A stretch of 45,784 bases of DNA from positions 1-45,784 of the forward strand of contig JBFEUB010000002.1 in NCBI GenBank assembly GCA_041547605.1. The letters run 5' to 3'. Shown piece by piece: positions 22,132 to 42,513 of this stretch (positions within the stretch are counted from its first letter, which is position 1; each line of letters begins with the position of its first letter). Under the pieces are notes generated by a model. That model did no database searches, was not told where the DNA came from, and saw only the letters and a program-made list of their open reading frames with translations. The DNA comes from Desulfobacteria bacterium. GTDB taxonomy: Bacteria; Desulfobacterota; Desulfobacteria; Desulfobacterales; C00003060. The position numbers and the translations under genes were made by a program.

Positions 22132-22333
22132 TATGATATACCTTTGACCGGTATGCTCCCCGCAAGCCCCGCCCGGAAGGGTGGGGGGACTGCACCCTTA
22201 AATTATTTAATAGTTATTAAAAAGCTTAATAGATAGAGGATATCAGCATTCTGTGACAAAATCCGGCCCATTTATTACATAATGTGATGATATCTTTATC
22301 AAAAATGGCAAGAAAAACATGTTTTGTGCGTGA

Positions 22334-22349
22334 TGGCATAAAACTTGCT
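22334..22349 (+). promoter_or_regulatory. sigma-54 (-24/-12) promoter of the minor-pilin operon
   Basis: TGGCAT-AAAAC-TTGCT has canonical GG/GC spacing. It lies 25 nt upstream of the ATG at 22374, with the GAGGTGGA RBS in between. Confidence 0.75.
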
Positions 22350-22373
22350 GTTTCGATTACCCGAGGTGGAGTG

Positions 22374-22925
22374 ATGAAGAGACACGAAAAAGGGTTCACC
22401 CTGGTAGAACTCATGATCGCCGTGGCTGTCCTGGCTATCATCGCGGCCATTGCGGTTCCCAACTACAGAGAATATATCCCCAAAGCGAGGGCTACCGGCG
22501 CTGCCAGGGAACTCTTCACTGAAATGCAGTTGGCCAGGCAGAAGGCCATATCTCGCAACAACGACTATGTGATCACATTCAATACCGGTAATGACAGCTA
22601 TACGATCTACAATGATGTGGACAACGATGGTCCAGAAGTGGGTGAAGTGGTAAAAACGATTTACATAGAAGATCATTACAAGGGGATCGGGTTCGGGTAT
22701 ATTGCAGGAAACAATCCGAGCGGCAGCCCGATCACGGGCAAGGTAACCTTTACGGACGACAAGTTTGCATTCGAGGCGACAGGTTTGGCCAACAAAGCCG
22801 GTGCTGTGTATCTCATTCCAAAGGAGGATATCGGTGCCTCCAGGAAAGACCGGCAAAGGGCTCTCACCGTGTTAGTGAGCGGGCGGGTGCGGTTATATGC
22901 TCACAACGGGACGGGTTGGCAGTAA
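22374..22925 (+). CDS. GspH/FimT-family minor (pseudo)pilin
   Basis: Has the prepilin signal KG|FTLVELMIAVAVLAIIAAIAVP. The start was set to the ATG at 22374. The body resembles the GspH/FimT domain. Confidence 0.75.
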   Translation: MKRHEKGFTLVELMIAVAVLAIIAAIAVPNYREYIPKARATGAARELFTEMQLARQKAISRNNDYVITFNTGNDSYTIYNDVDNDGPEVGEVVKTIYIEDHYKGIGFGYIAGNNPSGSPITGKVTFTDDKFAFEATGLANKAGAVYLIPKEDIGASRKDRQRALTVLVSGRVRLYAHNGTGWQ

Positions 22926-22999
22926 GGACTGTTCCCGTTTGATGGCTAGGCGCGGCGAATCTTGAAGGGAAGGGAAATCATATCATTGTGAGTACACAA

Positions 23000-23374
23000 A
23001 TGAAGAAAAAAAAGAGATATTCCACCACAGGGTTTACCCTACTGGAAGTCTTAATTGCGATCATCGTCTTGTCGTTCGCTCTACTGGCCATGGCCACCCT
23101 GGCTGGCTCTATCATGGGTTACAACAAGTTCGCGGATCATATGACCAAGGCCACCACCCTGTGTGAGGACAAAATTGAAGAATTTCAGAATGCTGATTAT
23201 TATGCCATTACAGGTTCAGCTTCTGATGAAACCGTTGAAACCCACTACACACGATCCTGGAGGGTTTACAGTGACGAACCACATACTGACATGAAGACCG
23301 TTGATGTGAGGGTGACATTTCAGTGGCAGAACAGATCCCATGATGTGGAACTTGCCACAATCATTATCAAATAA
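23000..23374 (+). CDS. pilV: PilV-like minor pilin
   Basis: Has the prepilin signal TG|FTLLEVLIAIIVLSFALLA. About 124 aa counted from the ATG at 23000; the ORF track starts at the GTG at 22988. Confidence 0.7.
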   Translation: MKKKKRYSTTGFTLLEVLIAIIVLSFALLAMATLAGSIMGYNKFADHMTKATTLCEDKIEEFQNADYYAITGSASDETVETHYTRSWRVYSDEPHTDMKTVDVRVTFQWQNRSHDVELATIIIK

Positions 23375-23418: not shown

Positions 23419-24504
23419 ATGTCTGACAAAGGATTCACACTCGTTGAGATCTTGGTGGCCATCTTTGCCTCCCTGATTGTGCTCGGAGCCATTGCTGCTA
23501 CGTTTATTATACAAAACAAGAGCTACGACCGAGAGGACCAGATTGTTGATATGCAGGAAAATGTAAGGGCTGCCATGCAGATATTGACTGCCAAGCTTCG
23601 CATGACAGGCTATGATCCCACCGGTTTAACCGGGGCGGGGCTCGTTGCAGCAGATTCTGACAGCATTCAGTTCACCATGGACCTCAACGGGGATGGCGAT
23701 ATACTCGACACCAATCCAGATGAGGACATCACCTTTGCCTTGGACACCACCGACCTGCAACTGACCATGGACGGTCAGCCTGTGGCTGAGAATATTCCAA
23801 CCAATGGCCTTGTGCTGACGTATTTTGACAGCAATGATAACCAATTAACCACCCCCCTTTCCGCGGGAGACCTTGCCCGGGTTACGCGGATTACGATCCA
23901 GTTAACAGCCAGAACCAAGAAACCCGACCCTGATTATCCGGGGGGGTACCGGACACGGACACTCACCTCTGATGTGGTCGTGCCGAATTTGGCCCTGAGC
24001 AGCGCAACCACGACAGCCACGACAACCGTGGGGACTACGACCGAAGGGACGACAACAGTGGGGACGACAACAGAAGAGACCACGACGTCCGAGACCACAA
24101 CATCGGAGACCACGACATCGGAGACAACGACGTCCGCGACGACCACCGCGGAAACAACGACGACTGAACCCGGAACCACGGCAACGACGACTACAGAGCC
24201 TGTAGATTTGGAAGGCCCTACGATTGCGAATATCGTGCAGGCTCCTCCCGGGGGGCAGATCATGAACAATCGGGATGTAGCTGTTTGCGCCGATATCACA
24301 GACCCTTCTGGCCTACAAAGCTTGGTCTTATGGACGGATAGAGATGGAGCCCTTGGGATGACGCCAGAAGGTGGCAATACTTACTGTGGAGTGATTCCAA
24401 GCCACAACAACAAGTTTACGACGTACTACATCCTGGCACAGGATATCCTGGGCAATGAGACGCAGAGTGCCTCATTCACGTATGAGCAGGGTCCGCTTTA
24501 CTAG
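23419..24504 (+). CDS. PilW-like minor pilin with Thr-rich linker and C-terminal 2-Cys domain
   Basis: Has the prepilin signal KG|FTLVEILVAIFASLIVL and a PilW-like core. A Thr-rich linker spans about aa 195-260, followed by a ~100-aa C-terminal domain that is conserved in the 27018-28139 paralog. Confidence 0.7.
   Translation: MSDKGFTLVEILVAIFASLIVLGAIAATFIIQNKSYDREDQIVDMQENVRAAMQILTAKLRMTGYDPTGLTGAGLVAADSDSIQFTMDLNGDGDILDTNPDEDITFALDTTDLQLTMDGQPVAENIPTNGLVLTYFDSNDNQLTTPLSAGDLARVTRITIQLTARTKKPDPDYPGGYRTRTLTSDVVVPNLALSSATTTATTTVGTTTEGTTTVGTTTEETTTSETTTSETTTSETTTSATTTAETTTTEPGTTATTTTEPVDLEGPTIANIVQAPPGGQIMNNRDVAVCADITDPSGLQSLVLWTDRDGALGMTPEGGNTYCGVIPSHNNKFTTYYILAQDILGNETQSASFTYEQGPLY
24001..24198 (+). 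repeat. in-frame tandem coding repeats (Thr-rich linker)
   Basis: Four imperfect 15-bp units GAGACCACGACGTCC (ETTTS) at 24076-24135 are preceded by VGTTTE(G/E)TTT duplications. Confidence 0.8.
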
Positions 24505-24542
24505 AATCCGTTGCGTGCATAGAAAGGCCTTAGGAGGATATT

Positions 24543-25943
24543 ATGCAGGTCCTAAAACCATATAACAACGAACGTGGCTCGGTCTTGGTCACGAGTCTGC
24601 TATTTATGGCAATCTTGGCTATCATGGGGACGGCAGCGTATTTGAGTTCCTCCAACGATCTGAAGATCAGCAAGAATTACAAGATAGCCAAAGAGGCGTT
24701 CTATGCGGCCGAAGCCGGGCTGGAAGAGGCAAGGGGGCGGCTCAGGGGCTCAACTGGGGAGACGTATTGGGCAGGTGATCCCAACGGGGGAACCCCGGAC
24801 CCAAATTGGTCGGCTTATATCTTGACGCCTTTCACCGCCGCAGACTTTGTCTCCAATCCGGACCCCGAGTACGACTCCAACCAAACGAATTATTTTCCGG
24901 TTGCGGGAAGTTACACGTGGATGATCCCTACGACCAATAATATTTGGAGCCTAAAGGGGAAAACCACGTTTGTGCAGTTCGGGGTGAAGATCAGACACAA
25001 GAGAGAATACGACGCCGAGCAGGACGGACACACCACAGCCGCGCCCCACTACATTGATGGTGATGGCAGCACGTCTGGCGGTCATACCACTTCGTCGCGC
25101 GGCAGCATTATTTATTATGGGTATGAAGACCCAGCCCGCCCGTATCAGCTGGTTCAATTCACCACGTCGGGCGGCACAAACTATGAGCCGGTTGAAATCA
25201 TGAGGGCCTACGGATTCGGTGGGAATTTCGCCGGAGATGACTATAGTATGAGGGTCATTGAGATCGAGGTGGTGCGTCACCCGGGCCCGGCAATAAACTC
25301 TACCCTATATTCAGAGCAAAATATAAGTTTCAACGGAGGTGCTGCCAACATCAACGGAATAGATCAAGGCAGTGGAACAAATTGCGGGGGGGATGACCTG
25401 CCGCCGGTCTATACAAAGACGCCAGCCGTGACAGATCCGAGCGGGGCTTCTTCGAGCACCTTTAACGGGTCTCCGCCAGTCCCGGTGCAGGGACCGGCGG
25501 ATTATGACGTCCCGACCCTGGTCAGGAGCTACACGGCTGCGAGAGATATCACGCTTACGAGCGCTGATGGTTGCCTTCAAACAGGCATCCCGAACCACGA
25601 CACTTACGGGTCTTCTTCCGACTTTGTTACCGTGTATGTAGATCCCTCAGGATGTCCCGGGGGTGTCATGGGATTCAATAATATTACTGGTTGGGGCCTC
25701 CTTTTGGTGGACGGGGATGTGGCCTTTGGAGGCATCAGCAAGTGGAACGGGCTGGTCCTGGTTGGGGGCACGACCACTGCTTCGGGTGGCGGCGGTGCAG
25801 GACTGAACGTTGAAGGGGCGCTGATGTCAGAATCGACAGTGACTATTAACGGTTCCATCAATGCCCAATATAACAGTTGTTATATATTGGCTGCCTTTCA
25901 GACCCAATCGCCCGATATCATCAGCTGGAGAGAGATTCATTGA
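24543..25943 (+). CDS. pilX: PilX-N-domain protein, oversized (466 aa)
   Basis: The N-terminus (ERGSVLVTSLLFMAILAIMGTAAYLSSSNDLKISKN...AFYAAEAGLEEA) is PilX_N-like, and AGGAGGA lies upstream. A large G/T/S-rich C-terminal extension follows. Confidence 0.65.
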   Translation: MQVLKPYNNERGSVLVTSLLFMAILAIMGTAAYLSSSNDLKISKNYKIAKEAFYAAEAGLEEARGRLRGSTGETYWAGDPNGGTPDPNWSAYILTPFTAADFVSNPDPEYDSNQTNYFPVAGSYTWMIPTTNNIWSLKGKTTFVQFGVKIRHKREYDAEQDGHTTAAPHYIDGDGSTSGGHTTSSRGSIIYYGYEDPARPYQLVQFTTSGGTNYEPVEIMRAYGFGGNFAGDDYSMRVIEIEVVRHPGPAINSTLYSEQNISFNGGAANINGIDQGSGTNCGGDDLPPVYTKTPAVTDPSGASSSTFNGSPPVPVQGPADYDVPTLVRSYTAARDITLTSADGCLQTGIPNHDTYGSSSDFVTVYVDPSGCPGGVMGFNNITGWGLLLVDGDVAFGGISKWNGLVLVGGTTTASGGGGAGLNVEGALMSESTVTINGSINAQYNSCYILAAFQTQSPDIISWREIH

Positions 25944-26494
25944 CGCCGTTTGTCAAGTGTAACCCGTATCTCATCTTGCATGGCGAGTATTTCATCCACC
26001 TGATGCCGGTAAACACGGTAGAACCCGCCGCGGATGATTTTTTCCCTAAGGCCTTTCAATGCCTCTGAGAACTTGAAAAGCTCGTCGTTTGTCATGATGT
26101 AGCGAAACGCTCCGAAACGTTCCTTGGCCGCCTTGAACTCTTCCAGCAGTTTCTTTGCTTCCTCTGTTTCTTCCTTGGGGGCTGTTGCCGTCTCTTTTTC
26201 CGTCTCTGGCTTGGCTTGTGCCGGGGCTGGTTCAGGCTCAGGCACAGGTTCTTCCACAGGCACTGGCTGCACCTCTATGTAGGGGACGTCTGATTCCTGG
26301 ATGGTGCGGATGTGATCCTTTTGAATGGCCACAACGCCTCCGTAGTAGGGAAACTTCACCTGGTTGCCCTCGTCCCAATACTCGGAAACGAAAAACTTCT
26401 TCCTGTTTTTCAGCTCAATGAGATAGGAACCGATACAGATGGAAGGATAGATAAGAAGAGCGATGGCGATCCACACGGCGAGTATTCTTTTCAT
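25937..26494 (-). CDS. hypothetical secreted or membrane-anchored protein
   Basis: 185 aa with an N-terminal hydrophobic signal, a PVPVEEPVPEPEPAP linker and a helical C-terminus. It is convergent with pilX and overlaps it by 7 nt. Confidence 0.5.
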   Translation of the reverse strand: MKRILAVWIAIALLIYPSICIGSYLIELKNRKKFFVSEYWDEGNQVKFPYYGGVVAIQKDHIRTIQESDVPYIEVQPVPVEEPVPEPEPAPAQAKPETEKETATAPKEETEEAKKLLEEFKAAKERFGAFRYIMTNDELFKFSEALKGLREKIIRGGFYRVYRHQVDEILAMQDEIRVTLDKRRQ

Positions 26495-26772
26495 GACGGT
26501 CTCCCGAGTCGTATCTGTTTGGTGGTACGGAACCGAATAGAGTCCACGAATTAACCCTCACGGCCGAAATCGAAACCTAGCAAAGTGAAGGCGTGAAAAA
26601 ACCCATGGGTTATGTTAAAGTTTAGCCATGCCTTAACCCAAAGTCAAGAGTGTGTCGATCAACGCGCATCTCCTGTCTTCTTAGCGTTTCAGGAGTCTGC
26701 CCCGACGCATCGGCAGGAAAAGCCTCGATCACTGGTCATCGCCGTTGCTGTTTGATCTACCGTGGGTCCATG

Positions 26773-26833
26773 TTGAACTACAACAGCGAGCGGATTCCCT
26801 GTTTCGATTGATTGGGACTGCAGGGAGCTTCAA
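26773..26833 (-). repeat. MITE/REP-like dispersed repeat, short form (copy 6)
   Basis: Reads TTGAACTACAACAGCGAGCGGATTCCCTG, then a core, then CTGCAGGGAGCTTCAA. Confidence 0.8.
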
Positions 26834-27017
26834 ACGTGCATTCGGCTTTATGATTAATGTTGAAAATGACCCATCAATGTGCCATGGTACAAACCGCTGG
26901 ATGATTGCGTGCATTCCGTTTTTATCCCCCTGGACACCTGAGCCTCTGAGGGGGAAGGCGCTTCCTTGACCGGAGTCTTCCACAGAATAAGAGATGAATA
27001 GAGAAGAGATTGTAAAG

Positions 27018-28139
27018 ATGTCTGAAAAAGGATTTACACTCGTTGAGTTCCTGATTGCCATCGCGGCTTCACTGGTTGTGTTGGGCGCGATTGCCGCTGC
27101 CTTTATTTTTCTAGAAAGGGGTTACAACCAAAAGACAAAACTTGTTGAGATGCCAGAAAATTTTAGAGCCGGCCTGCGGTTCATGACCGAAGAGCTTTCA
27201 AAGGCAGGGTATGATCCTACCGGAACGGCTGGAGCCGGTCTCGTCGTGGCAGGTCCCGACACGATCCAGTTCACTATGGACTTGAATGGAGACGGTGATG
27301 TCGTCGACACCAACCCGGATGAAGATGTGACGTTTGCTGTGAACCGGACCCAGCTTCGGCTGACCAGGAACGGCCAGCCGCTGGCTATGGACATGCCAGC
27401 CGATGAACTTGTCTTCACGTATTTCGATCGCTATGACAACCAATTGATTGGTGCCCCCCTGTCGCTTGCGCAGAGTGCCAGGGTGGCGCGGATTAGCGTC
27501 AAATTGACTGCTAGAGCCGACAAATCTGACTCTGGATACCCAGAAGACGGCTACCGGACATGGACGCTGACGTCCGATGTGCTTGCGCCCCATTTGGCCA
27601 GCGCTGGCAGGAGGATGACGACACCAACAACAACCGAAACAACAACGACCGGCCCAACGACAACCGCAGCTCCAACAACGATCCCGACCACGACGACCAC
27701 AGAACCACCGCAAACCACGACCACGACGACAACTGCAGCTCCAACAACGGTCCCGACCACGACGACGACCACGACGACAAAAGGAACAACAACAACGACG
27801 GCTACGACCACGACAACAACTACCACCACAACCACGACGACCACGCAAGACATGGAAGGACCCAAGATTTCAGAGGTCAGTCAGGTTCCCGCTGGGTCAC
27901 CCGTACCAGGGAATAAGACGGTCATTGTGTGTGCGGCGCTTGCTGACCCTGCCGGTGTAGCGAGCGTCACCTTGCACAGCGATCAACATGGAGACGTTGC
28001 GATGTCCCTTTACGCTGGCGACATGTACTGTGGGAATCTTTCAAGGAAGAATAACCAGATGGTTACCTATTATATGATTGCAGTGGACCGCTTGGGAAAT
28101 CGAACGACGAGCGATACGTATTCTTACTATCAGAAATAG
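27018..28139 (+). CDS. PilW-like minor pilin paralog with poly-Thr linker and C-terminal 2-Cys domain
   Basis: Has the prepilin signal KG|FTLVEFLIAIAASLVVL. The ATG at 27018 is the likely start; the ORF track starts at 26994. The Thr/Pro-rich linker is at nt 27615-27842. The core and C-terminal domain align with the 23419-24504 product. Confidence 0.7.
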   Translation: MSEKGFTLVEFLIAIAASLVVLGAIAAAFIFLERGYNQKTKLVEMPENFRAGLRFMTEELSKAGYDPTGTAGAGLVVAGPDTIQFTMDLNGDGDVVDTNPDEDVTFAVNRTQLRLTRNGQPLAMDMPADELVFTYFDRYDNQLIGAPLSLAQSARVARISVKLTARADKSDSGYPEDGYRTWTLTSDVLAPHLASAGRRMTTPTTTETTTTGPTTTAAPTTIPTTTTTEPPQTTTTTTTAAPTTVPTTTTTTTTKGTTTTTATTTTTTTTTTTTTTQDMEGPKISEVSQVPAGSPVPGNKTVIVCAALADPAGVASVTLHSDQHGDVAMSLYAGDMYCGNLSRKNNQMVTYYMIAVDRLGNRTTSDTYSYYQK

Positions 28140-28882
28140 CCCGGGACAGGACACCTCCTCAGACCCCACCAGAGCCGCAGGAGATGTGCATAGCGATAGA
28201 CGCCTTCATGCACGATATTGAACTTGCTTGCTCTGAAGTCCTCACACCATACAGGTATTTCGATAATCCTGCCACCGTCTCGATGCACCAGGGCGATCAT
28301 GTCAATCACGTACGACGTGCCATGATTGATTCTGTCCAAATGCCCGAGAAGGACTGATCTTCGGTATGCCTTGGCGCCGATGGAGTAGTCTTCAAAGGCA
28401 AGATCAAGGAGACGCCTGGAACAAAAAATGAAAAGCCCGCTTCCCAGAATTCTAAAGCCCGATCTCCTTTGTTGGCCCATCTTTTTTGAACCGACTACAA
28501 TTTCATAGCCCTCATCCAGCAGGTTGAGGGCCTGCTCAATGAAGCCAAGGTCAACGGAAAGATCCATGTCAAGGGAAACAATGAAGCCATGTCGCGCCAT
28601 ACGAACACCTTGTCTGAACGCGTGCCCAACGCCCCTTTGCGACACGTGAAAAAACCGGACCGTGGGATACTGGTCGGCCAGACTCTCTCCCAGCAGTGGG
28701 GTTTTGTCCCTTGAGCCATTGCTTCCGATGATAATCTCAAACGATTCATAAAGCCCGTTCAGATGGGCTATGAGGCTCTCCGTATTCTGAACCATGATAT
28801 CTTGCTCATTGTAGACTGGAATAATGATGCTAAACGGCTTCAAGCAACGAATCCTCCAAACAGACGCAATTGGCGTATCCAT
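28130..28882 (-). CDS. family 2 glycosyltransferase (DPM1/ArnC/GtrB-like size)
   Basis: Has the GT2 N-terminus FSIIIPVYNEQD. A TTG at 28843 is an alternative start that would give MKPFSIIIPVYNE. It overlaps the upstream TGA as TTGA and has GGAGGA 8 nt upstream. Confidence 0.75.
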   Translation of the reverse strand: MDTPIASVWRIRCLKPFSIIIPVYNEQDIMVQNTESLIAHLNGLYESFEIIIGSNGSRDKTPLLGESLADQYPTVRFFHVSQRGVGHAFRQGVRMARHGFIVSLDMDLSVDLGFIEQALNLLDEGYEIVVGSKKMGQQRRSGFRILGSGLFIFCSRRLLDLAFEDYSIGAKAYRRSVLLGHLDRINHGTSYVIDMIALVHRDGGRIIEIPVWCEDFRASKFNIVHEGVYRYAHLLRLWWGLRRCPVPGYF

Positions 28883-30192
28883 GAGTGTATATTTCCCCGG
28901 GTGATGCGGGATAGAATATATTGGGGTCTCAAGTAAAAGCGTTTAAAGGCCTCTCGTGACATTTTAGTGAGCAGGAGCGGATTGTGCTCGGCGCAATACA
29001 CGGGGAAGTCTGGCGTTGTCTTCACGTCGGATGAGGCAGACAAGGCATTTTTGTAAAGGGGGGTGCCGGGGTAAGGGGTGACGACGTGAAACGAGGCATA
29101 GGTCGGATTAAGCGTTTTGGCAAATGAGATGGTCTTTTGCATATCGGCTGGTGTTTCTCCGGGTAGTCCAAACAAGAAAAAGCAGGCAGTGTCGATTCCT
29201 GCCTCCTGTGTCAGCCGTACCCCTGTGTGGATGGTGGCAAGACCGACCCTTTTCTGCGTATCACGCAAAACATCTTCTGAGCCGGACTCCACGCCAAAGT
29301 GGATCAGGCGGCATCCCGCTTGCTTCATCTTGGATAAGAGCGCAGCATCCACAGCATCCGCCCTTGTCTGGCAGCACCAGATAAAAGGATGCTTTTGTTC
29401 AGACAACCGGTCACAGATCTTGACTGTGCGATCTCGGTTCAGTGTAAACTCTAAATCAATAAAATATCCTGTGCGCACGCCGAATTTGGTGACCGCTATA
29501 TCTATCTCGTTGATCAACCGACCCACCGGCTTGAACCGGACACCCTCTCCGAACATGACTTTCAAACAGAAGCGACACGGATATGGGCAACCCCGAGAAC
29601 TCTCAAATAAGGCAAAGCGTTTCCCCAAGAGTTCATAATAGTACCTGCTAAAATCGATCAGATCAAAGGCGGGCACAGGAGTCTGTGCCATATCCAGTGG
29701 CTCTGCTGGGCCGTTTGATGTGAACGTATTTTTTCGTTTGAAAACGACCCCGGGGGTGGCACCCCAGTCGCCTTCCGAGACGAGCCTGACCACTGCCGGC
29801 TCGGGCTCACCCACCACAACGGCTGCGGCACCTGTTTGCTCCAGCATGGCCTGTGGAAAAAGCGAGCCGTGAGCCCCAACAATGATCAGCTTTTCCGAAG
29901 GGCATGACTGTGCAATGGCTATAAAGTGGTCAACCTCCAGGTTGGGGCACTGCCAGCGGTCTATGGGAGATGAGGTCAAAACGATCCAGTCATATTGGTG
30001 GCTGATTCTATTGACTTGTCGGCGCCAGCCTGGCTGCACCCGGCCGTCGATGATCTGAACCGCACATCCTGCCTCTCGCAGCATGGCAGCGCATACCATC
30101 AGGCTGAGGGGTGGCCAAGCTCGATTGAACCGCTTACCCTGCCGGCTGACTTGCCCCGGCCAGTTTGGATTAATCAACAGTACTTTTTTCAA
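28840..30192 (-). CDS. B12-binding-domain radical SAM protein
   Basis: The N-terminal KKVLLINPNW... region resembles a cobalamin-binding domain. The radical SAM motif is CPYPCRFC. The start codon is TTG. Confidence 0.75.
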   Translation of the reverse strand: MKKVLLINPNWPGQVSRQGKRFNRAWPPLSLMVCAAMLREAGCAVQIIDGRVQPGWRRQVNRISHQYDWIVLTSSPIDRWQCPNLEVDHFIAIAQSCPSEKLIIVGAHGSLFPQAMLEQTGAAAVVVGEPEPAVVRLVSEGDWGATPGVVFKRKNTFTSNGPAEPLDMAQTPVPAFDLIDFSRYYYELLGKRFALFESSRGCPYPCRFCLKVMFGEGVRFKPVGRLINEIDIAVTKFGVRTGYFIDLEFTLNRDRTVKICDRLSEQKHPFIWCCQTRADAVDAALLSKMKQAGCRLIHFGVESGSEDVLRDTQKRVGLATIHTGVRLTQEAGIDTACFFLFGLPGETPADMQKTISFAKTLNPTYASFHVVTPYPGTPLYKNALSASSDVKTTPDFPVYCAEHNPLLLTKMSREAFKRFYLRPQYILSRITRGNIHSWIRQLRLFGGFVA

Positions 30193-30197
30193 CTTGG

Positions 30198-30269
30198 TTC
30201 ACCGCAGAGACGCAGAGTGCGCGGAGTAAGACAATTTTTTGTTTTTTCCTCCAGGAAAAAAACAAAAAA
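30198..30269 (+). repeat. left inverted repeat of the GxxExxY cassette
   Basis: TTCACCGCAGAGACGCAGAGTGCGCGGAG (30198-30226) plus the A/T hairpin TTTTTTGTTTTTTCC...GGAAAAAAACAAAAAA (30235-30269). It matches the reverse complement of 30865-30937. Confidence 0.8.
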
Positions 30270-30295
30270 CGACTCGGACCAAAGGCCATAGGTTT

Positions 30296-30830
30296 TCAAA
30301 GCTTTTTCACAATTCTTTTAATACCATTTTTGAGTACTGAAACATTAAAGTTTATGATCAGCCCCACCTTGATGTTTGATAACTTCAAGTATGTGAGAAG
30401 CTGAGCTTCATGGATGGCTTGAACTGCAACAGCGAGCGCATTCCCTGTAGCTTGCTACAGGGTTAGGAGCGACTCTGAAAATGGTACCCTTCCTTACAGT
30501 CGCTGCGAAGCACTGCCGTCAGGCAGAACATTCCCTGCAGATTATATGAAACGGGCTGCAGGGAGCTTCAATAGTGTCGCAGGATTTCAATTCCAGAACC
30601 AAAACATTCTTGATTATGAGATCGATACGATAGCCGCAATCTAGCTTTACCCCTTTGTATTCAAGTGGGAGTTCCTCCTGACGGACAAAGCTTATTTTTC
30701 TTAAAGACAATTCCGTGAAAAGACACTGTTCATACGCAGATTCTAAGAGCCCAGGCCCGAGGGCCTTGCGGACCTCGGTAGCAGCTCCTATCTCCTTTTG
30801 TGTCAGTTTGTTTATTTCTTCCATGGACAA
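30296..30830 (-). pseudogene. GxxExxY-family (PD-(D/E)XK-like) gene interrupted by a repeat element
   Basis: The 5' part (30830..30573) encodes ...LGPGLLESAYEQCL...VLELKSCDTI. The 3' part (30418..30296) is in another frame and encodes [40 protein letters not shown]. The two parts are separated by the 154-bp repeat. Confidence 0.85.
30419..30572 (-). mobile_element. MITE/REP-like repeat, long form (copy 7), inserted into the GxxExxY gene
   Basis: Both conserved ends are present (TTGAACTGCAACAGCGAGCGCATTCCCTG ... CTGCAGGGAGCTTCAAT). The interior is homologous to copy 1. The flanks reconstitute one ORF. Confidence 0.85.
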
Positions 30831-30864
30831 GGTCTATTATGTGACTTAGCCGTTAGGCTGGAGG

Positions 30865-30937
30865 GTTTTTCTCGGTTTTTTGAACAAAAAACGAGAAAAC
30901 AATTTACTCTCTGCGCACTCTGCGCCTCTGCGGTGAA
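30865..30937 (-). repeat. right inverted repeat of the GxxExxY cassette
   Basis: The reverse complement reads TTCACCGCAGAGGCGCAGAGTGCGCAGAG plus the A/T hairpin GTTTTCTCGTTTTTTG...CAAAAAACCGAGAAAAAC. The GC box encodes the last 11 codons of the 944-aa ORF. Confidence 0.8.
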
Positions 30938-33738
30938 ATCTTCCTTACCTCTTTCAGGCGTTCCTTGGCATATCCGGCCCAGCGGTCGTCTGGAAATTCG
31001 TCTATAAGCCGGTTATACGCCGACACGGCCTCATCTGCCCGATGTAGCCTCATCTTGCATATGCCAATATGATAAAGAACCTCAGAGAGCTTTCGGGTTT
31101 CTGGATAATCTGCTGCCATCTGTTCAAAGGCTTCGAGGGCATCCTGCCACTTTTCTTCCCTGAAATAGGCCGCGGCATAGTGAAAAGCGGTCTGGTCAAT
31201 AATTGGCGAATAGGGGAATAGCTTCATAGCCTCTTCGAAGATCTTTCGAGCCGTTTGATAGTTCTTCTTGGTGTAATGGGCCAGCCCCTTATTGTATAGG
31301 ACCGTGGCATCATTTTGTTGGCCCAGCAATATGAACCCCGTCATTGCTCCCATGATGGTGATGACCATTGCCCACAACAACCTTTTCTTCCAGACCAAAT
31401 CGTGCAATCGGCGGGGCAGGAGTCCTTGCACCCGATCCAGCATTCGACATTCGCGTTTAGAAATTTGAAACCTATGTTCCAATAACGCACAACCAATCGC
31501 CAGCATGACTCCCAGGAGGCTCAAGGCGTATCCGAGATAATTGGGCAATGATGGGTAAAAATAGAGCCGAACATGCTGTTGCGTCGGATAGATCAACATG
31601 AAGGAGGGTGAGACAAGATAGATGCGATCGGCTCCCTCAACACGCCAGTTTGGATGATACGAGATCCGCACCAGATGCGGTAATCCAATGTTCTGGGTCT
31701 CTATCACAATTTCTTCGGGCCGGATGATCTCCTTGACAAGGCCTTTGCCTCGATTTGCTTGCCCTGCCGTGTATGCATCTTGGAATCCCAAGTTTGCTCC
31801 CTTTCCGGAAAGTGCCGGGCTGTTCCTACCTAACGGGTTTGGATGACTCGCTTCGTAGGACATAGGGCGTGGGGACAACTTGTGGGGCAGCCTACCGTGA
31901 ATAATTCTGTTGAAGCGATCCGTATCTCCGGGCTCGAGCCGTTCCTTAAAGGCCACAAAGGTTTTAAGGTCGCTCTTTCTGAACCACTGAAATGCTTCCT
32001 GCTGCCATTTTTTGGTCACGAGCAGCACAGGTTCGTAGTCGAGTAAAGACACATACCGGTCACCATTATTGGGCAGCCGGTAGATGGTGTAGGGCGGAAA
32101 ATCGGCTTCGCGAACCACTTCAGCCGATTTTGAAAGCGCCTTGCGGACCTTGTCTGTTACTACGACCAGGTGGCTCACATTAAATAGCTTCAGATGCTTG
32201 AGGCCCTTCTCAAGGTTCAGCCTTGAATAGTTATAGTCTGGCAAGGGGCAGGAAGGCTTGTCTGAAATCTCAGATTGTACATAAAAGACGAAAGGGGAGG
32301 TGATCGTAGACTGGATATAGAGCCCTTCGAGCGTGGAGCGCCCTGAAAAATAGGGAAGCATCTCAAAGGCTCGAACGGATCCGGCGCCCCGGTGTTTCAG
32401 GTCGTGCTCATAGGCTACCCTTGGATCGTGACAGGTCCCTTTGAGCTTTTCGTGAAGCGTCCAAAAAGCTGGCCATACACGCTTTTTCTCAAAGCCTGAA
32501 TAGTTCCACGCGATCCAGCTAGAAACAGAGCGGACTTGGGTGTTGACTATCAAGACGGTTACGACAGCCAAAAAAAGCGGAAAGAGTGAGAGCGCCTTTA
32601 GGCGAGATGTGAGGTGGTATATACCCACTGCCCCCAAGAGCATTAATGAACATTGCATGAAAGGGATGAAGCGGGTATCGACGACATTCATCTTAAAGGC
32701 CATAAAGTAAAAGGCTGCTGCCAAGAGGCATATAAACCATAGAAAGGCGACCGGGCTTATTGCACGTGTTGGGTTCTTCGCCGCTGAAGCACTGTAAAGG
32801 TTTTGTGTTGTTGCGACCGACTCTTCAACGGTCGTCTTCTGGTTTCGTATCTTCTGGATAAGGGTCCAGACAGTACCGCCGATGGCAAGCGCCATCACCG
32901 GTAAAAGTATGGGGGGGAAGACTTGCCAGATACCATCAATAATCCACACAAAGCTGAAGCGGGTCGTGTAAGGTATGAACCACAGGAGCTGCACAATCCA
33001 GAACCCGAGCAAGAAAAAGGCAAGGGCGTGCACCTTGAAGTAATACCATGTCTTTTCAAGAAAGCGGTTCGTAGTGAAAAGGAAAAAGGTAGCCGCAAAG
33101 ACACCAAAGATAAGGGTGCAGGCATGGGAAAGGCCGATGAGGGTCAATAGGGCCCCATTCGCGATGGTATACTTGTTTTCCATGACGCCTTTATAAAATA
33201 ACCCCAAGTACAGAAAAAGGAGGGCAAACCCGATTCCGTATGCAAACTCGCCAGCCAAGGTGCTGGGAATGTTGCCGCCCCAAGCGGAATTGGCTTCCAT
33301 GAAGAGGAAGGGGACTGTAAATATCGCCCCGGTGATAGGGACTGGAAACCGAAAGCCGAGTAGCCGTAAGCAGCAGAATGCACAGACAGGCAACAGGAAT
33401 ATCCCAAGGACCGAGACCAGCTTGAAAGCGATCTGAAGCGGCATCAAGAGGTTCAGTCCGGCCGTGATCAGAAAGGGAAGCGGAAAATAGAACTGGAACA
33501 TCGGGAATCCACCATAGTTTCCGGGCATCCATCCGATGATCTTGCCCTTGGGCAAAAGGGTATGGATCAGGTAGTGGGCTGTCAGGTAGTGTGAGGGGGT
33601 GTCTCCACCTGTGATGGTGGTCTTGGACAGGAGATGCGAAGGTGTAAAGTATCCCAGAAGATAACCGTAGATCAGGGAAAAGACCGCAAGCCGAACAAGA
33701 AGTCTTTTTAGGCCTTGTGCATTCATCAGAGTGGTCAT
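30904..33738 (-). CDS. large polytopic membrane protein, GT-C-like (YfhO/PTPS-related-like) with C-terminal TPR domain
   Basis: 944 aa with about 12 or more TM segments. The first extracytoplasmic loop has GGDTPSHY. It continues with a soluble middle domain, a late TM helix and C-terminal TPR repeats (YNKGLAHYTKKNYQTARKIFEE...). The GT-C assignment is inference. Confidence 0.5.
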   Translation of the reverse strand: MTTLMNAQGLKRLLVRLAVFSLIYGYLLGYFTPSHLLSKTTITGGDTPSHYLTAHYLIHTLLPKGKIIGWMPGNYGGFPMFQFYFPLPFLITAGLNLLMPLQIAFKLVSVLGIFLLPVCAFCCLRLLGFRFPVPITGAIFTVPFLFMEANSAWGGNIPSTLAGEFAYGIGFALLFLYLGLFYKGVMENKYTIANGALLTLIGLSHACTLIFGVFAATFFLFTTNRFLEKTWYYFKVHALAFFLLGFWIVQLLWFIPYTTRFSFVWIIDGIWQVFPPILLPVMALAIGGTVWTLIQKIRNQKTTVEESVATTQNLYSASAAKNPTRAISPVAFLWFICLLAAAFYFMAFKMNVVDTRFIPFMQCSLMLLGAVGIYHLTSRLKALSLFPLFLAVVTVLIVNTQVRSVSSWIAWNYSGFEKKRVWPAFWTLHEKLKGTCHDPRVAYEHDLKHRGAGSVRAFEMLPYFSGRSTLEGLYIQSTITSPFVFYVQSEISDKPSCPLPDYNYSRLNLEKGLKHLKLFNVSHLVVVTDKVRKALSKSAEVVREADFPPYTIYRLPNNGDRYVSLLDYEPVLLVTKKWQQEAFQWFRKSDLKTFVAFKERLEPGDTDRFNRIIHGRLPHKLSPRPMSYEASHPNPLGRNSPALSGKGANLGFQDAYTAGQANRGKGLVKEIIRPEEIVIETQNIGLPHLVRISYHPNWRVEGADRIYLVSPSFMLIYPTQQHVRLYFYPSLPNYLGYALSLLGVMLAIGCALLEHRFQISKRECRMLDRVQGLLPRRLHDLVWKKRLLWAMVITIMGAMTGFILLGQQNDATVLYNKGLAHYTKKNYQTARKIFEEAMKLFPYSPIIDQTAFHYAAAYFREEKWQDALEAFEQMAADYPETRKLSEVLYHIGICKMRLHRADEAVSAYNRLIDEFPDDRWAGYAKERLKEVRKISPQRRRVRRE

Positions 33739-33756
33739 GTCCTGCGAAAAAATATA

Positions 33757-36697: not shown

Positions 36698-36801
36698 GCA
36701 GCCCGATGCAACGTTTAACCAAACCAGCTGATTTCATCGTTTTGCGGCGAAACACGGAGAATCAACAACACAAACATCATCTGAGAATTGAGGAGGCTGT
36801 T

Positions 36802-37560: not shown

Positions 37561-37666
37561 CGGAAGAGATTGTAAAATTCGGCGGTTCAGGATTTGGTGT
37601 TGCCGGGCTTTGGGGCTGATCAATGGGAGATTGCTGACAACAAATCAAGGGACAAATGACCCGTAA

Positions 37667-41151: not shown

Positions 41152-41152
41152 T

Positions 41153-41857
41153 TTATAATTCCCCAAGTTTTTTCTGTAGTATTAAATCCACTGTTTGCAG
41201 TTTCATCTGACCAGTAAAAAAATCTTCAACCTCTTCCTCAACAATGACTCTATCCCTCAGTATTCTTTTCACTTGGCCAAAATTCGCGCCAAGGTATGTC
41301 CCCTTTGTGACCACATACCCCTTGCCGGATGGTTCCTCTATCAAGGCCTTGTTTCCTGTGGCAGAGATAATGATTCCTACCACTTTGAGTTGACTCAAGT
41401 CTATCTTCTGAAGCGGCGTGAGGGGAAGCTTTCTTTCACGGGCACTTATCTGGACCTTAGTTCCTCTGCGTGCGCTTGGCTGCGTTACGAAAAGGGATTG
41501 AAAGGGATCTATCTTCCCCTTGGGATCATAGACGTATGCCGCCTTTTTCAGAGTCTCTTCGGGCCCTTCTGGGCTCGGTTCCGGCTCTAACTCAGCTTCA
41601 AGGGGCTCTAGTTCCGCCTCAGGGGGAGCCGGTTCTACTTTGGCCTCTTCCACGGGAGGTTTCTCCGGAGCCTTTGGGGCTTCCTCCTGATCACTCGGTT
41701 TCACTGCTTGGGCAGCAGGCGGTTGGGGTGCCTCAACCTTTTTTCGAATGACCACGGGGCTGGCGGGAGGTGTCGGCTCTTGCTGCTCTCCGCATCCTCC
41801 TGCAACAAGGAGCATCAGCCCCAGAACAAGGAGAAGCTTACAAGGAGTCCGTGGCAT
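41153..41857 (-). CDS. pilP: pilus assembly lipoprotein PilP
   Basis: The start was set at MPRTPCKLLLVLGLMLLVAGGCG (lipobox). It has a P/A/E-rich linker and a C-terminal PilP-like beta domain. It sits between pilO and pilQ. Confidence 0.7.
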   Translation of the reverse strand: MPRTPCKLLLVLGLMLLVAGGCGEQQEPTPPASPVVIRKKVEAPQPPAAQAVKPSDQEEAPKAPEKPPVEEAKVEPAPPEAELEPLEAELEPEPSPEGPEETLKKAAYVYDPKGKIDPFQSLFVTQPSARRGTKVQISARERKLPLTPLQKIDLSQLKVVGIIISATGNKALIEEPSGKGYVVTKGTYLGANFGQVKRILRDRVIVEEEVEDFFTGQMKLQTVDLILQKKLGEL

Positions 41858-41883
41858 TGTCATGTCGCCTTTGTTCCTCCATC

Positions 41884-42492
41884 TCATTGCGATCCGGCCG
41901 GTGAGGGCTGTGCGGCCTCCAAAAACCTGTAAGTCATGGCCACACATGAGGCATTCAAGACTCCCGGGGTCAGCGCGGGCGCCTGTATATTAATATTCAG
42001 TATATTGACGATGCGGGAGAGCCTTGCGACTCTGTCAAAAAACATGGCCAGGTTGTGATATCCACCCGATACCTGAACATTGACGGGAATCTCGGCGTAA
42101 AAATCTCTTGGCGCCTCTGGGCCGGGCTGGAACAGCAGAAATTCAAGACCGGAATCTTTGCCTGACTTTGAAACCCCTTCCAGGAGACCTGGAATTTCCC
42201 GCTTGTCCGGCAAAAGCTGAAGAGCCAATTTGAACTTTCCCTGTGCCTCCTCAAAATTTTTCTGAAACCTTTCGAGGTTTTCTGCGGCATTTCTGGCCGT
42301 GAAAAGCTTACTTTGAAGTGTTTCGTATTCATCCCTCAAGTCAGTGAGTTCCTGGGATTTTGGCGCGTAGATAAGATAATAAAAACCGCCGCCTAAGATC
42401 AAAAAAAGTCCCACACAAATCAAAATCCTTTGCGTGCGGCCTATGGCTGCGATCTTTTCAAACGGAAAGGACGGAAGTGCAATCTTTGCCAT
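41884..42492 (-). CDS. pilO: pilus assembly protein PilO
   Basis: 202 aa with a single TM followed by a coiled coil. Its position between pilN and pilP is conserved. Confidence 0.75.
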   Translation of the reverse strand: MAKIALPSFPFEKIAAIGRTQRILICVGLFLILGGGFYYLIYAPKSQELTDLRDEYETLQSKLFTARNAAENLERFQKNFEEAQGKFKLALQLLPDKREIPGLLEGVSKSGKDSGLEFLLFQPGPEAPRDFYAEIPVNVQVSGGYHNLAMFFDRVARLSRIVNILNINIQAPALTPGVLNASCVAMTYRFLEAAQPSPAGSQ

Positions 42493-42513
42493 CTGTCTCT
42501 ACTGCATTTTGGG

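What the first reader, a model, noticed from the sequence alone, without database searches (positions are those of the whole stretch)
23419..28139. Two PilW-like pilins with mucin-like Thr-rich linkers and a shared 2-Cys C-terminal domain
Both proteins have a class III prepilin signal (KG|FTLVE) and a homologous PilW-like core, for example AGYDPTG..AGAGLV...IQFTMDLNGDGD..DTNPDED.TF and R.TLTSDV..P.LA. Each core is followed by a 65-75-aa linker that is almost pure Thr (with E/S/G or P/A). A ~100-aa C-terminal domain follows and is also conserved between the two: EGP.I....Q.P.G......V.VCA...DP.G......D..G...M..G..YCG.....NN...TYY..A.D.LGN.T. By eye it is about 40% identical, with two invariant Cys. 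Typical PilW proteins end after the core. A flexible, probably O-glycosylated stalk carrying an Ig-like module suggests a displayed adhesin or receptor-binding tip domain built onto a priming-complex pilin.
Basis: partly seen in the sequence, partly recalled or inferred. Interest (0 to 1): 0.7.

Follow-up and report, generated by a model that had tools for sequence, protein, structure and literature searches.

The report
PilW pilins carrying tethered Ig-like domains
Two genes in a type IV pilus locus of a Desulfobacterales bacterium encode PilW-type minor pilins that carry a small Ig-like domain on a long threonine-rich tether, a recurrent but apparently undescribed form of "modular pilin" that probably puts a binding module at the pilus tip.

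Summary
ORFs 23419-24504 and 26994-28139 (likely start 27018) encode prepilins (KG|FTLVE). Their cores are 60% identical. Each has a 71- or 84-residue linker that is 56-65% Thr, then a 95-98-residue C-terminal domain that is 40% identical between the two, ungapped, with a shared Cys pair.

The core belongs to the PilW family. The first gene sits in a GspH/FimT-PilV-PilW-PilX operon, with pilMNOPQ in the same window and no PilY1.

AlphaFold2 models the linker as disordered and the C-domain as a β-sandwich. The domain has no Pfam hit. A full HMM search places it in a large family of Ig-like repeats that overlap Big_7, CBM_56 and GlgE_N_S models and occur mostly in giant surface proteins.

The same three-part architecture recurs in at least seven 50%-identity clusters and in ten independent metagenome loci (several near-identical to one another). 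A syntenic genome about 90% identical has both genes intact, under purifying selection.

This is a new variant of the known "modular pilin" class. The adhesin role and O-glycosylation of the tether remain inferences. A GT2 plus GT-C-like/TPR gene module near the pilin genes in two lineages is only circumstantial support.

The parts
22284..22925 (+). GspH/FimT(FimU)-like minor pilin, first gene of the minor-pilin operon. The probable start is Met31 at 22374, giving MKRHEKG|FTLVE.
   Evidence: Pfam N_methyl 3.9e-10 and GspH 8e-07. NCBIfam GspH/ComGD-type hits below cut-off. Motif scan.
22988..23374 (+). PilV/GspI-like minor pilin (TTG|FTLLE).
   Evidence: N_methyl. TIGR02523 PilV 1.4e-08 and GspI 7e-07, both below cut-off.
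23419..24504 (+). p1: modular PilW-type minor pilin, 361 aa, made of leader plus core, Thr-rich tether and Ig-like domain.
   Evidence: An SD-like AAAGGAGA lies 8 nt upstream of the start.
23419..23997 (+). p1 PilW module (aa 1-193): leader MSDKG, α1 helix at residues 8-60, then a β-sheet head. It contains no Cys.
   Evidence: pLDDT above 90 over residues 10-190. Homologues carry PF16074 or are named PilW. dN/dS 0.10 against L003.
23998..24207 (+). p1 Thr-rich tether (aa 194-263), built of TTTxx pentapeptide repeats.
   Evidence: 40 Thr in 71 aa. 15-, 30- and 45-nt tandem periodicity. Mixed Thr codons. pLDDT below 50. dN/dS 0.12.
24208..24501 (+). p1 C-terminal Ig-like β-sandwich domain (aa 264-361) with the Cys290/Cys323 pair.
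   Evidence: AF2 pLDDT 81.7, nine strands. Foldseek returns Ig/Fn3/E-set modules. The family HMM finds 685 clusters. dN/dS 0.37.
24543..25943 (+). Large PilX-type cap pilin (466 aa) lacking Glu5 (G|SVLVT).
   Evidence: Pfam PilX_N 9e-12. Sequence read directly. Conserved immediately after the fused PilW in L002, L003, L005, L006, L010 and L015.
25937..26494 (-). orf185: a small protein with an N-terminal hydrophobic, signal-peptide-like segment (by eye) and a P/E-rich segment, convergent with pilX. It may be associated with the system but its role is unknown.
   Evidence: Homologues sit convergent just after a pilX gene in L003, L005, L006 and L010. Only a sub-threshold DUF3391 hit.
26994..28139 (+). 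p2: second, stand-alone modular PilW-type pilin. It is 381 aa from 26994, or 373 aa from the conserved Met at 27018.
26994..27599 (+). p2 PilW module (aa 1-202).
   Evidence: 60% identical to the p1 core. dN/dS 0.30 against L003.
27600..27851 (+). p2 Thr/Pro/Ala-rich tether (aa 203-286).
   Evidence: 55 Thr in 84 aa. Tandem periodicity. The orthologue's open reading frame is 13 aa longer than p2 counted from Met9 (386 vs 373 aa), the extra length lying in the linker. dN/dS 0.20.
27852..28136 (+). p2 C-terminal Ig-like domain (aa 287-381) with the Cys pair.
   Evidence: 40% identical to the p1 domain. dN/dS 0.46.
28130..33738 (-). GT2 (28130-28882), B12-binding radical SAM (28840-30192) and PTPS_related (GT-C-like) membrane protein with TPR repeats (30904-33738). 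This is a candidate glycosylation module for the tether, but it is not shown to belong to the system.
   Evidence: Pfam. GT2 and GT-C/TPR homologues also lie 4-8 kb from the minor-pilin operon in L005, but not within 10 kb in L006, L009, L010, L015 or L016.
38848..44126 (-). pilQ (38848-41166), pilP (41153-41947), pilO (41884-42492), pilN (42514-43074) and pilM (43071-44126): the type IVa pilus machine that would assemble these pilins.
   Evidence: Pfam Secretin with AMIN, PilP and PilM_2. PilO and PilN.

Best explanation
p1 and p2 are modular core minor pilins of a type IVa pilus. The N-terminal PilW module (class III signal peptide, Glu5, α1 helix plus β-sheet head) would enter the priming and tip complex formed with the GspH/FimT-like, PilV-like and large Glu5-less PilX proteins of the same operon. 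That complex is assembled by the PilMNOPQ machine encoded 11 kb away.

The C-terminus of PilW continues into a 70-85-residue Thr-rich, intrinsically disordered tether. The tether ends in a single roughly 10-kDa Ig-like β-sandwich, stabilised by a disulfide specific to this subfamily. When the pilus extends, this module would hang from the tip on a flexible stalk roughly 10-25 nm long and act as a ligand-binding (adhesin) head. A glycan ligand is possible. The operon encodes no PilY1.

The two paralogues have PilW modules 60% identical and heads only 40% identical, so they would give tips with different specificity.

Shown here: the gene structure, homology, fold class, disorder of the linker, conservation and purifying selection, recurrence of the architecture, and the operon context.

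Inferred: tip location, which rests on what is known of PilW/GspJ in priming complexes (PMC7541494), the binding function, the disulfide, and any glycosylation.
For: Prepilin motif and N_methyl hits.

Core family: 204 homologues. JGI names many of them PilW, and PF16074 is found in 19 of 113 aligned members.

Operon order GspH-PilV-PilW-PilX, with PilX lacking Glu5. pilMNOPQ lies in the window. No ORF in the window matches or is large enough for PilY1.

Full-length AF2 model: core pLDDT above 90, linker below 50, C-domain 80-95. C-domain alone: pLDDT 81.7, β-sandwich. Foldseek best hits are Ig-like modules of the adhesins SiiE and SrpA and accessory modules of glycoside hydrolases.

HMM search: 685 clusters, mostly multi-copy repeats in giant surface proteins. 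Those repeats overlap Pfam Big_7, CBM_56 (8 copies in P0139, E 8e-71), GlgE_dom_N_S and DUF7743.

The same PilW-tether-Ig architecture occurs in P0135, P0161, P0174, P0183, P0185, P0214 and P0248 and in ten of the 12 metagenome loci (seven read through from the prepilin motif; three begin inside the linker at a contig end; L014 and L015 could not be read). It has the same operon context in L005, L006 and L010.

Both genes are intact in a syntenic genome about 90% identical (CP070769.1), with dN/dS 0.10-0.46 in every segment.

The Cys pair is present in 15 of 19 pilin-type copies but in only 5 of 472 repeat copies. It is lost on both sides together in 3 pilin-type copies.

Core and C-domain identities correlate, r = 0.86 over 78 pairs, so the fusion is inherited as a unit.

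Modular pilins with grafted adhesin modules are an established class (PMC8179133).
Against: No experiment or direct computation here shows binding, tip location or incorporation into pili.

The core's GspJ/PilW fold was not confirmed by fold search. Foldseek on the full model returned only hits to the Ig domain, and p1 itself does not reach Pfam PilW.

Ig-like modules of this family often serve as spacers rather than binders.

In M. xanthus a C-terminal sfGFP on PilW3 is incorporated but jams the machine (PMC7541494). A C-terminal addition to PilW is therefore not automatically tolerated.

Overall dN/dS of the C-domain is below 1, so there is no sign of diversifying selection.

A related lineage (P0012/L016) keeps a Thr/Pro-rich tail without the Ig domain. 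In CP070668.1 the p2 orthologue carries an in-frame stop. p2 at least may therefore be dispensable.
Confidence: 0.6

Rival explanations
1. Structural or assembly role rather than adhesion. The tethered Ig domain folds back onto the tip complex, for example onto the large PilX. Alternatively it acts as a plug or cork at the secretin, or as a periplasmic docking element, substituting for the plug function of PilY1 in a PilY1-less system. It would have no external ligand.
For: There is no PilY1 in the operon or the window. Large PilX proteins are proposed to replace the PilY1 plug in cyanobacteria (bioRxiv 10.64898/2026.02.12.705559), and the tip complex acts as a cork in M. xanthus (PMC7541494). 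Many members of this Ig-like family are spacer repeats. The C-domain is under purifying, not diversifying, selection.
Against: A disordered tether of 70-85 residues is unnecessary for an intramolecular docking partner. The tether is kept long (45-95 aa) across the family. The C-domain evolves about 3.5 times faster than the p1 core (dN/dS 0.37 vs 0.10), which is unlike a conserved assembly interface. Close core-only PilW homologues (62-65% identical, 192-202 aa) evidently function without the domain.
Confidence: 0.2
2. Adapter for a secreted partner, as with CofB-CofJ. The Ig domain recruits another secreted protein, or a substrate of the machine, to the tip rather than binding an environmental ligand itself.
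For: CofB and TcpB are minor pilins with a flexible linker and β-sandwich domains that dock a secreted protein (summarised in PMC8179133). A small protein with a signal-peptide-like N-terminus (orf185) is conserved immediately after pilX in four lineages.
Against: No link between orf185 and the Ig domain has been shown. CofB/TcpB belong to type IVb systems and act as trimers, and they are not PilW homologues. p2 sits away from any such partner gene.
Confidence: 0.12
3. Artefact or decaying genes. The long ORFs arise from mis-assembly across low-complexity Thr repeats or from fusion of neighbouring genes, or they are pseudogenes with no function.
For: Thr-linker DNA often breaks assemblies: many database entries are fragments that begin or end in the linker. 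The p2 orthologue in CP070668.1 has an in-frame stop next to a run of N.
Against: The uninterrupted fusion reads through from the prepilin motif in seven independent metagenome contigs and at least seven cluster representatives. It also reads through for both genes in CP070769.1. All three segments show dN/dS of 0.10-0.46. Thr codons are mixed, which does not fit slippage.
Confidence: 0.02

Closest known systems
Modular type IV pilins (S. sanguinis PilB with a vWA module and PilC with a lectin module; Raynaud et al. 2021, PMC8179133; PMC9934059)
   Same: An N-terminal pilin module with a class III signal peptide carries a C-terminal, non-pilin functional module for display by the filament. Both are minor pilins, probably exposed at the tip. 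Two modular pilins with different heads occur in one organism.
   Different: Here the carrier is the conserved core minor pilin PilW of a diderm T4aP priming complex. The connector is a 70-85-residue mucin-like Thr-rich disordered tether rather than a short loop. The head is a roughly 95-aa Ig-like domain without any Pfam signature, so the InterPro-based survey in that paper would not have detected it.
CofB (ETEC) and TcpB (V. cholerae) type IVb minor pilins
   Same: A pilin domain joined by a flexible linker to β-rich domains, including a β-sandwich. They are located at the tip and initiate assembly.
   Different: They belong to type IVb systems and are not homologous to PilW. Their linker is much shorter and not Thr-rich, they carry two extra domains, and they function as trimers docking CofJ. 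None of these points was tested here; this description is taken from PMC8179133.
PilY1/PilC tip adhesins with the FimU-PilVWX priming complex (M. xanthus, P. aeruginosa; PMC7541494)
   Same: The proposed function is analogous: a variable binding module displayed at the tip through the minor-pilin complex. Multiple variants would give tips of different specificity.
   Different: PilY1 is a separate non-pilin protein of about 1000 aa with a β-propeller. Here there is no PilY1 gene in the operon or window, and the module is covalently fused to PilW. In M. xanthus an artificial C-terminal sfGFP on PilW3 jams the machine.
Big_7 / CBM_56 / GlgE_dom_N_S / DUF7743-type Ig-like (E-set) repeats of giant surface proteins and glycoside hydrolases
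   Same: The C-domain profile retrieves these repeats at E down to 1e-84, with up to 20 copies per protein. The matched stretches coincide with those Pfam models. The β-sandwich fold is shared.
   Different: c1 and c2 themselves hit no Pfam model even at E of 10 or less. The pilin-borne copies are single and C-terminal, and they carry a Cys pair that is almost absent from the repeat copies (5 of 472).
TfpW-type pilin O-glycosylation (P. aeruginosa group IV pilins; bioRxiv 10.1101/2020.04.19.049825) and three-component GT2 / flippase / GT-C systems (PMC11127046)
   Same: A GT-C-class membrane glycosyltransferase encoded beside a pilin gene modifies Ser/Thr of the pilin in the periplasm. Here a GT2 and a GT-C-like (PTPS_related) plus TPR protein lie next to p2, and near the operon in L005.
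   Different: The neighbouring enzymes are not homologous to TfpW as far as tested. No flippase was identified, and no glycosylation has been shown. The linkage holds in only 2 of about 6 lineages examined.

Membership tests
Type IV pilin / class III signal peptide proteins | Short leader ending in Gly, followed by a hydrophobic α1 helix with Glu at position 5 of the mature protein (N_methyl motif). | tested here: met
   MSDKG|FTLVE in p1 and MSEKG|FTLVE in p2. Pfam N_methyl scores 23.6 and 23.8 bits against a 21.2 cut-off. TIGR02532 is above cut-off. The model has a helix over residues 8-60.
PilW (T4aP core minor pilin; GspJ equivalent) | Sequence homology to the PilW family (Pfam PF16074 / COG4966). 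| tested here: met
   Met by transitive homology. A profile of the two cores finds 204 proteins, and JGI names many of them 'type IV pilus assembly protein PilW'. 19 of 113 aligned members hit local Pfam PilW, best E 4e-12. p1 and p2 themselves do not reach PF16074. They give sub-threshold hits to NF007848 over residues 2-121.
PilW (T4aP core minor pilin; GspJ equivalent) | Position in a fimU/fimT-pilV-pilW-pilX minor-pilin operon of a T4aP system. | tested here: met
   p1 sits in the order GspH-like, PilV-like, p1, PilX_N, with pilMNOPQ in the window. L003, L005, L006 and L010 show the same order. p2 is a stand-alone copy.
PilW (T4aP core minor pilin; GspJ equivalent) | GspJ/PilW-like three-dimensional fold of the globular head. 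| tested here: inconclusive
   The head is modelled with pLDDT above 90 as α1 plus β-sheets. However, Foldseek on the full-length model listed only matches to the Ig domain, and a profile search of PDB sequences matched only the α1 helix of pilins.
PilW (T4aP core minor pilin; GspJ equivalent) | Incorporation into the priming/tip complex and requirement for piliation. | not testable with these tools
   This needs genetics or proteomics of pili.
Modular pilins (sensu Raynaud et al. 2021) | An N-terminal pilin module fused to an independently folding, non-pilin C-terminal module. | tested here: met
   There are two confidently modelled domains separated by a low-confidence linker. The C-domain occurs independently in hundreds of non-pilin proteins.
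Modular pilins (sensu Raynaud et al. 2021) | The grafted module has a direct role in a pilus-mediated function such as adhesion. | not testable with these tools
   This is inferred only, from the fold class and from analogy.
Big_7 / CBM_56-type Ig-like domains | A match to the Pfam model above the gathering threshold. | tested here: not met
   No Pfam family is reported for either C-domain at E of 10 or less. The relationship is only transitive, through repeat proteins that hit both profiles. One family member hits Big_7 at E 0.0027.
Mucin-like O-glycosylated linkers | Dense Ser/Thr(/Pro) low-complexity segment, predicted to be disordered. | tested here: met
   56-65% Thr. pLDDT below 50. Linkers across the family are 35-71% Thr plus 0-45% Ser.
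Mucin-like O-glycosylated linkers | Actual O-glycans on the Ser/Thr residues. | not testable with these tools
   Only circumstantial: GT2 and GT-C-like/TPR genes lie nearby in two lineages.

The most novel reading that the evidence does not exclude
The Thr-rich tether is a true bacterial mucin-like stalk. It would be densely O-glycosylated in the periplasm by the linked GT2 plus GT-C-like/TPR (PMT/TMTC-like) module. That would make these the first type IV pili with a glycosylated, extended 'fishing line' at the tip carrying a lectin-like (CBM56-related) head. The two paralogous PilW cassettes would be swapped into the priming complex to change what the pilus grabs, for example partner cells or polysaccharide matrices in anaerobic sediments.
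Probability: 0.15. Interest if true: 0.7.

Novelty: new variant of a known kind. Interest (0 to 1): 0.45.

Why it matters
How type IV pili gain binding specificity is mostly understood through PilY1 and a few modular pilins from pathogens.

This finding shows a different solution in environmental Desulfobacterales-type bacteria. The conserved priming-complex subunit PilW itself carries a small Ig-like head on a long mucin-like tether, and the operon has no PilY1.

The design recurs in many uncultured lineages but is hidden from databases for two reasons. The head has no Pfam model. The Thr-coding repeats also break assemblies and gene calls; one orthologue is annotated only as a 95-aa hypothetical protein.

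It offers a natural counter-example to the observation that a bulky C-terminal tag on PilW jams the machine. It also gives a defined domain family (with a profile built here) for finding more such pilins, and a testable candidate for pilus-tip glycoproteins.

Tried and rejected
(1) Pfam on the isolated C-domains at E of 10 or less gave nothing.

(2) phmmer and profile searches of PDB sequences were uninformative. The full protein gave only a meaningless hit at E 0.55. The core profile matched only pilin α1 helices. The C-domain profile's best match was the Ig-like domain of P. gingivalis peptidylarginine deiminase at E 0.04. PilX gave nothing.

(3) The word-indexed protein search with the C-domain returned only short fragmentary gene calls and missed all full-length fusions. 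The exhaustive HMM search was needed.

(4) Foldseek of the full-length model was swamped by Ig-like hits, so the PilW/GspJ fold of the core could not be verified. The viral library gave only generic phage Ig/Fn3 modules.

With four sequences it found one genome, CP070769.1.

(6) I looked for a riboswitch or other RNA element in the 500-bp leader upstream of p2 and across the window. Only one tRNA turned up, at 323-394.

(7) The promoter and terminator scan around the two genes was not above shuffle expectation.

(8) A slippage-type simple repeat origin for the linkers is rejected, because Thr codons are mixed and dN/dS is 0.12-0.20.

(9) Mis-assembly or pseudogene status is rejected, given the independent intact copies and purifying selection.

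(10) Positive selection on the head is not supported at whole-domain level (ω 0.37-0.46). Site-level tests were not possible with two sequences.

Full report
**Observation**

The two ORFs are present as described. p1 is 23419-24504 (+), 361 aa. p2 is 26994-28139 (+), 381 aa. The p2 orthologue in a related genome starts at the second Met (MSEKGF), so 27018 is the likelier start.

Both begin with a class III signal peptide, MS(D/E)KG|FTLVE, with Glu5. Both pass the Pfam N_methyl threshold. The N-terminal 194 residues are 60% identical, E 5e-79.

The linkers are 71 aa with 40 Thr in p1, and 84 aa with 55 Thr in p2. The C-terminal 98 and 95 residues align without gaps at 40% identity (E 2e-28), with both Cys in register.

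The p1 linker is a TTTxx pentapeptide array with 15-, 30- and 45-nt periodicity. In both linkers Thr is encoded by a mixture of ACG, ACA and ACC. The composition is therefore maintained at the protein level, not by triplet slippage.

No other Thr-rich run and no other copy of the C-domain exists in the window.

**Genomic setting**

p1 is the third gene of a minor-pilin operon:
- a GspH/FimT-like pilin at 22284-22925
- a PilV/GspI-like pilin at 22988-23374
- p1
- a 466-aa PilX_N protein at 24543-25943, whose mature N-terminus lacks Glu5 (G|SVLVT) as expected for the capping subunit

pilQ (with AMIN domains), pilP, pilO, pilN and pilM lie at 38848-44126 on the minus strand. This is therefore a type IVa pilus system.

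No ORF in the window matches PilY1, and none of the ORFs without a family assignment (at most 292 aa) is large enough to be one.

p2 stands alone. It lies after a convergent 185-aa ORF and a roughly 500-bp leader. It ends tail-to-tail against a GT2 gene (28130-28882), a B12-binding radical SAM gene, and a 944-aa PTPS_related membrane protein with C-terminal TPR repeats. From memory, PTPS_related belongs to the GT-C clan.

The window is about 90% identical and syntenic to CP070769.1, a Desulfobacterales MAG. It is also syntenic, downstream of p2, to CP070668.1.

**The PilW module**

A profile of the two cores retrieves 204 proteins. Many are called 'type IV pilus assembly protein PilW' by JGI and carry precomputed PF16074. 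On rescanning, 19 of 113 aligned members hit Pfam PilW, best E 4e-12.

p1 and p2 themselves stay below that model. They give only sub-threshold NCBIfam hits that extend past the α1 helix.

Of the 120 listed homologues, 99 are 235 aa or shorter, median 205 aa. A normal family member therefore ends where the p1 and p2 linkers begin.

AlphaFold2 with this alignment models residues 10-190 at pLDDT above 90, as a long α1 helix plus β-sheets.

I could not confirm the GspJ/PilW fold by structure comparison.

**The tether**

Residues 197-257 of p1 have pLDDT below 50.

Across 13 full-length family members the connector is 45-84 aa by my delimitation. In P0161 the same rule cut it to 28 aa; the full low-complexity connector there is nearer 95 aa and K/A/P/T-rich. 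It is always rich in hydroxy-amino acids, but the partner residues differ: E/S, P/A, poly-Ser, or TA repeats.

Against the CP070769.1 orthologues the linkers have dN/dS of 0.12 and 0.20.

**The C-terminal domain**

There is no Pfam hit, even at E of 10 or less.

AlphaFold2 gives a nine-strand β-sandwich with pLDDT 81.7 and pTM 0.72. In the full-length model the domain reaches pLDDT 80-95.

Foldseek against the PDB returns only generic Ig/Fn3/E-set modules at E of about 4e-4. These include a xanthanase accessory module, the SrpA and SiiE adhesins, the CelAly B1 domain, CbhA Fn3-like modules and GlgE domain N/S. Phage Ig-like modules are equally weak.

An exhaustive HMM search of 1.84 billion cluster representatives finds 685 proteins at E of 1e-3 or less, and 207 at E of 1e-10 or less. 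Most are proteins of 1000-6600 aa with up to 20 tandem copies.

In those proteins the matched stretches coincide with Pfam Big_7, CBM_56 (eight copies in P0139), GlgE_dom_N_S, DUF7743 and Big_3 models. They sit beside β-helix, PKD and T9SS sorting domains.

The domain is thus a divergent member of a very large family of Ig-like surface-protein repeats. Some of those repeats are classified as carbohydrate-binding modules.

The Cys pair marks the pilin-borne subfamily. Both Cys are present in 15 of 19 pilin-type copies, against 5 of 472 repeat copies. They are lost on both sides together in three pilin-type copies. That pattern fits a disulfide. The disulfide is not verified, because no model coordinates were available to me.

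**Recurrence**

Seven cluster representatives have the same three-part architecture: P0135, P0161, P0174, P0183, P0185, P0214 and P0248. Several truncated entries show it too (P0029, P0148, P0247).

A metagenome scan with one conserved peptide gave 12 loci. Seven encode a prepilin PilW core, a Thr/Ser/Ala-rich linker and a single C-terminal domain in one frame. Three more (L004, L008, L012) are cut by a contig end within the linker or at the start of the gene and show the rest of the architecture. L014 and L015 are fragments with no readable pilin core.

In L005, L006 and L010 the gene again sits between a PilV-like and a PilX_N gene, next to a GspH-like gene. A PilB-type ATPase or a secretin lies nearby.

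Core and C-domain identities correlate across 78 pairs (r = 0.86), so the fusion is inherited as a unit. In a crude NJ tree of cores the fused proteins fall into three or four groups interleaved with core-only PilWs. That implies losses or transfers, but I do not lean on this tree.

Many database entries are fragments starting or ending in the linker. In CP070668.1 NCBI annotates only the 95-aa head as a hypothetical protein. There the orthologue has an in-frame stop beside a run of N. The architecture is therefore systematically under-called.

**Selection**

Both genes are intact in CP070769.1, at 361 and 386 aa. Nei-Gojobori dN/dS values are:

| Gene | Core | Linker | Head |
|---|---|---|---|
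| p1 | 0.10 | 0.12 | 0.37 |
| p2 | 0.30 | 0.20 | 0.46 |

For comparison, PilV is 0.25 and PilX is 0.31.

Every segment is constrained. The head evolves faster than the p1 core, but there is no whole-domain signal of positive selection.

**Mechanism**

Established knowledge places PilW/GspJ in the priming complex, which stays at the pilus tip (PMC7541494). Modular pilins with grafted adhesin modules are a recognised and widespread class (PMC8179133).

The most likely reading is therefore that p1 and p2 are modular PilW subunits. Each would present a roughly 10-kDa Ig-like head on a flexible stalk of tens of nanometres at most, at the tip of a pilus that has no operon-encoded PilY1. The two paralogues would offer alternative heads.

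What the head binds is unknown. The CBM_56 and glycoside-hydrolase affinities of the wider family make a glycan ligand a reasonable guess, nothing more.

Three rivals remain:
- a structural or plug role in a PilY1-less tip (compare the cyanobacterial PilX β-solenoid proposal, bioRxiv 10.64898/2026.02.12.705559)
- an adapter role for a secreted partner, as with CofB-CofJ
- artefact, now effectively excluded

One caution applies. A C-terminal sfGFP on M. xanthus PilW3 is incorporated but blocks function (PMC7541494). The small head and long tether may be what makes the natural fusion tolerable. That remains to be shown.

**O-glycosylation**

This was not tested.

Circumstantial support comes from gene linkage. 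GT2, a GT-C-like/TPR protein and a 292-aa ORF lie next to p2. Homologues of all three (24-41% identical) lie 4-8 kb upstream of the minor-pilin operon in the divergent L005. A GT-C enzyme encoded next to a pilin gene is known to glycosylate pilin Ser/Thr (TfpW, bioRxiv 10.1101/2020.04.19.049825). GT2 plus GT-C periplasmic systems are common (PMC11127046).

Against this, the module is absent within 10 kb in L006, L009, L010, L015 and L016. p2 and the GT2 gene are also convergent, so they are not co-transcribed.

**Novelty**

The literature search found modular pilins and minor-pilin tip complexes. It found nothing describing PilW fused to a Thr-rich tether and an Ig-like head.

Because the head has no Pfam signature, the published InterPro-based census of modular pilins would likely have missed it.

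I rate this a new variant of a known kind. It is moderately interesting for pilus biology, and the proposed function is untested.

Noticed in passing
window 25937-26494 (-): A 185-aa ORF with a hydrophobic, signal-peptide-like N-terminus (by eye), a small conserved N-terminal domain, a P/E-rich linker and a C-terminal part. It overlaps the pilX stop by 7 nt on the opposite strand. Homologues sit convergent right after a pilX gene in L003, L005 (11969-12139), L006 (15010-15177) and L010 (14564-15046). It may be a conserved partner of this PilX type.
   Followed up: partly
window 28130-34635 (-); L005 57-4958 (+): GT2, B12-binding radical SAM, a PTPS_related (GT-C-like) membrane protein with TPR repeats (944 aa) and an unannotated 292-aa ORF. 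Homologues of the GT2, the GT-C/TPR protein and orf292 are again clustered near the minor-pilin operon in the divergent locus L005, but not in four other lineages. This is a candidate periplasmic glycosylation system and has not been tested.
   Followed up: partly
L001 9456-10288 (CP070668.1): The p2 orthologue in this Desulfobacterales MAG has an in-frame stop in the PilW core (MTV*LTAR) and a run of N just upstream. NCBI annotates only the 95-aa Ig-like head as hypothetical protein JSV60_01280. This is either a pseudogene or a sequencing or assembly error.
   Followed up: partly
L016 2385-3221: A p2-like PilW (P0012) carries a Thr/Pro/Ala-rich tail that stops without any Ig-like domain. The next gene is a LysM protein. 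The tether can therefore exist without the head, or the head was lost.
   Followed up: partly
window 24543-25943 (+): PilX is unusually large (466 aa). Only its first 51-residue PilX_N region is annotated, and the rest has no Pfam or PDB sequence match. It may hold a β-solenoid-type plug, like the cyanobacterial PilX proteins and ComZ, but I did not model it.
   Followed up: no
window 34904-38704: Two LysM-domain proteins (34904-36697 +, 37667-38704 -) and a TPR protein (36643-37560 +) lie between the pilin genes and pilQ. LysM genes are also beside the pilin or pilQ genes in L005 and L016. They may be peptidoglycan-binding accessory factors of the pilus machine.
   Followed up: no
P0196 (814 aa), P0197 (727 aa), P0239 (922 aa): Other, larger proteins carry one to five copies of the same Ig-like domain; P0197 and P0239 pass Pfam N_methyl, P0196 has only a prepilin-like motif at residue 44. 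P0239 also has Big_7, and P0197 another Ig-like module. The domain has therefore been grafted onto pilins in more than one architecture.
   Followed up: partly
L006 11723-14645; L010 11970-14561: In these loci a second minor-pilin set (GspH-like, a second PilV-like stretch by tblastn, then, in L006, a 243-aa N_methyl protein, and PilX_N) follows directly after the set that contains the fused PilW. These organisms seem to encode one 'plain' and one 'head-bearing' priming complex side by side.
   Followed up: no
window 323-394 (-): This is the only Rfam match in the window: one tRNA gene. It is unrelated to the finding.
   Followed up: no
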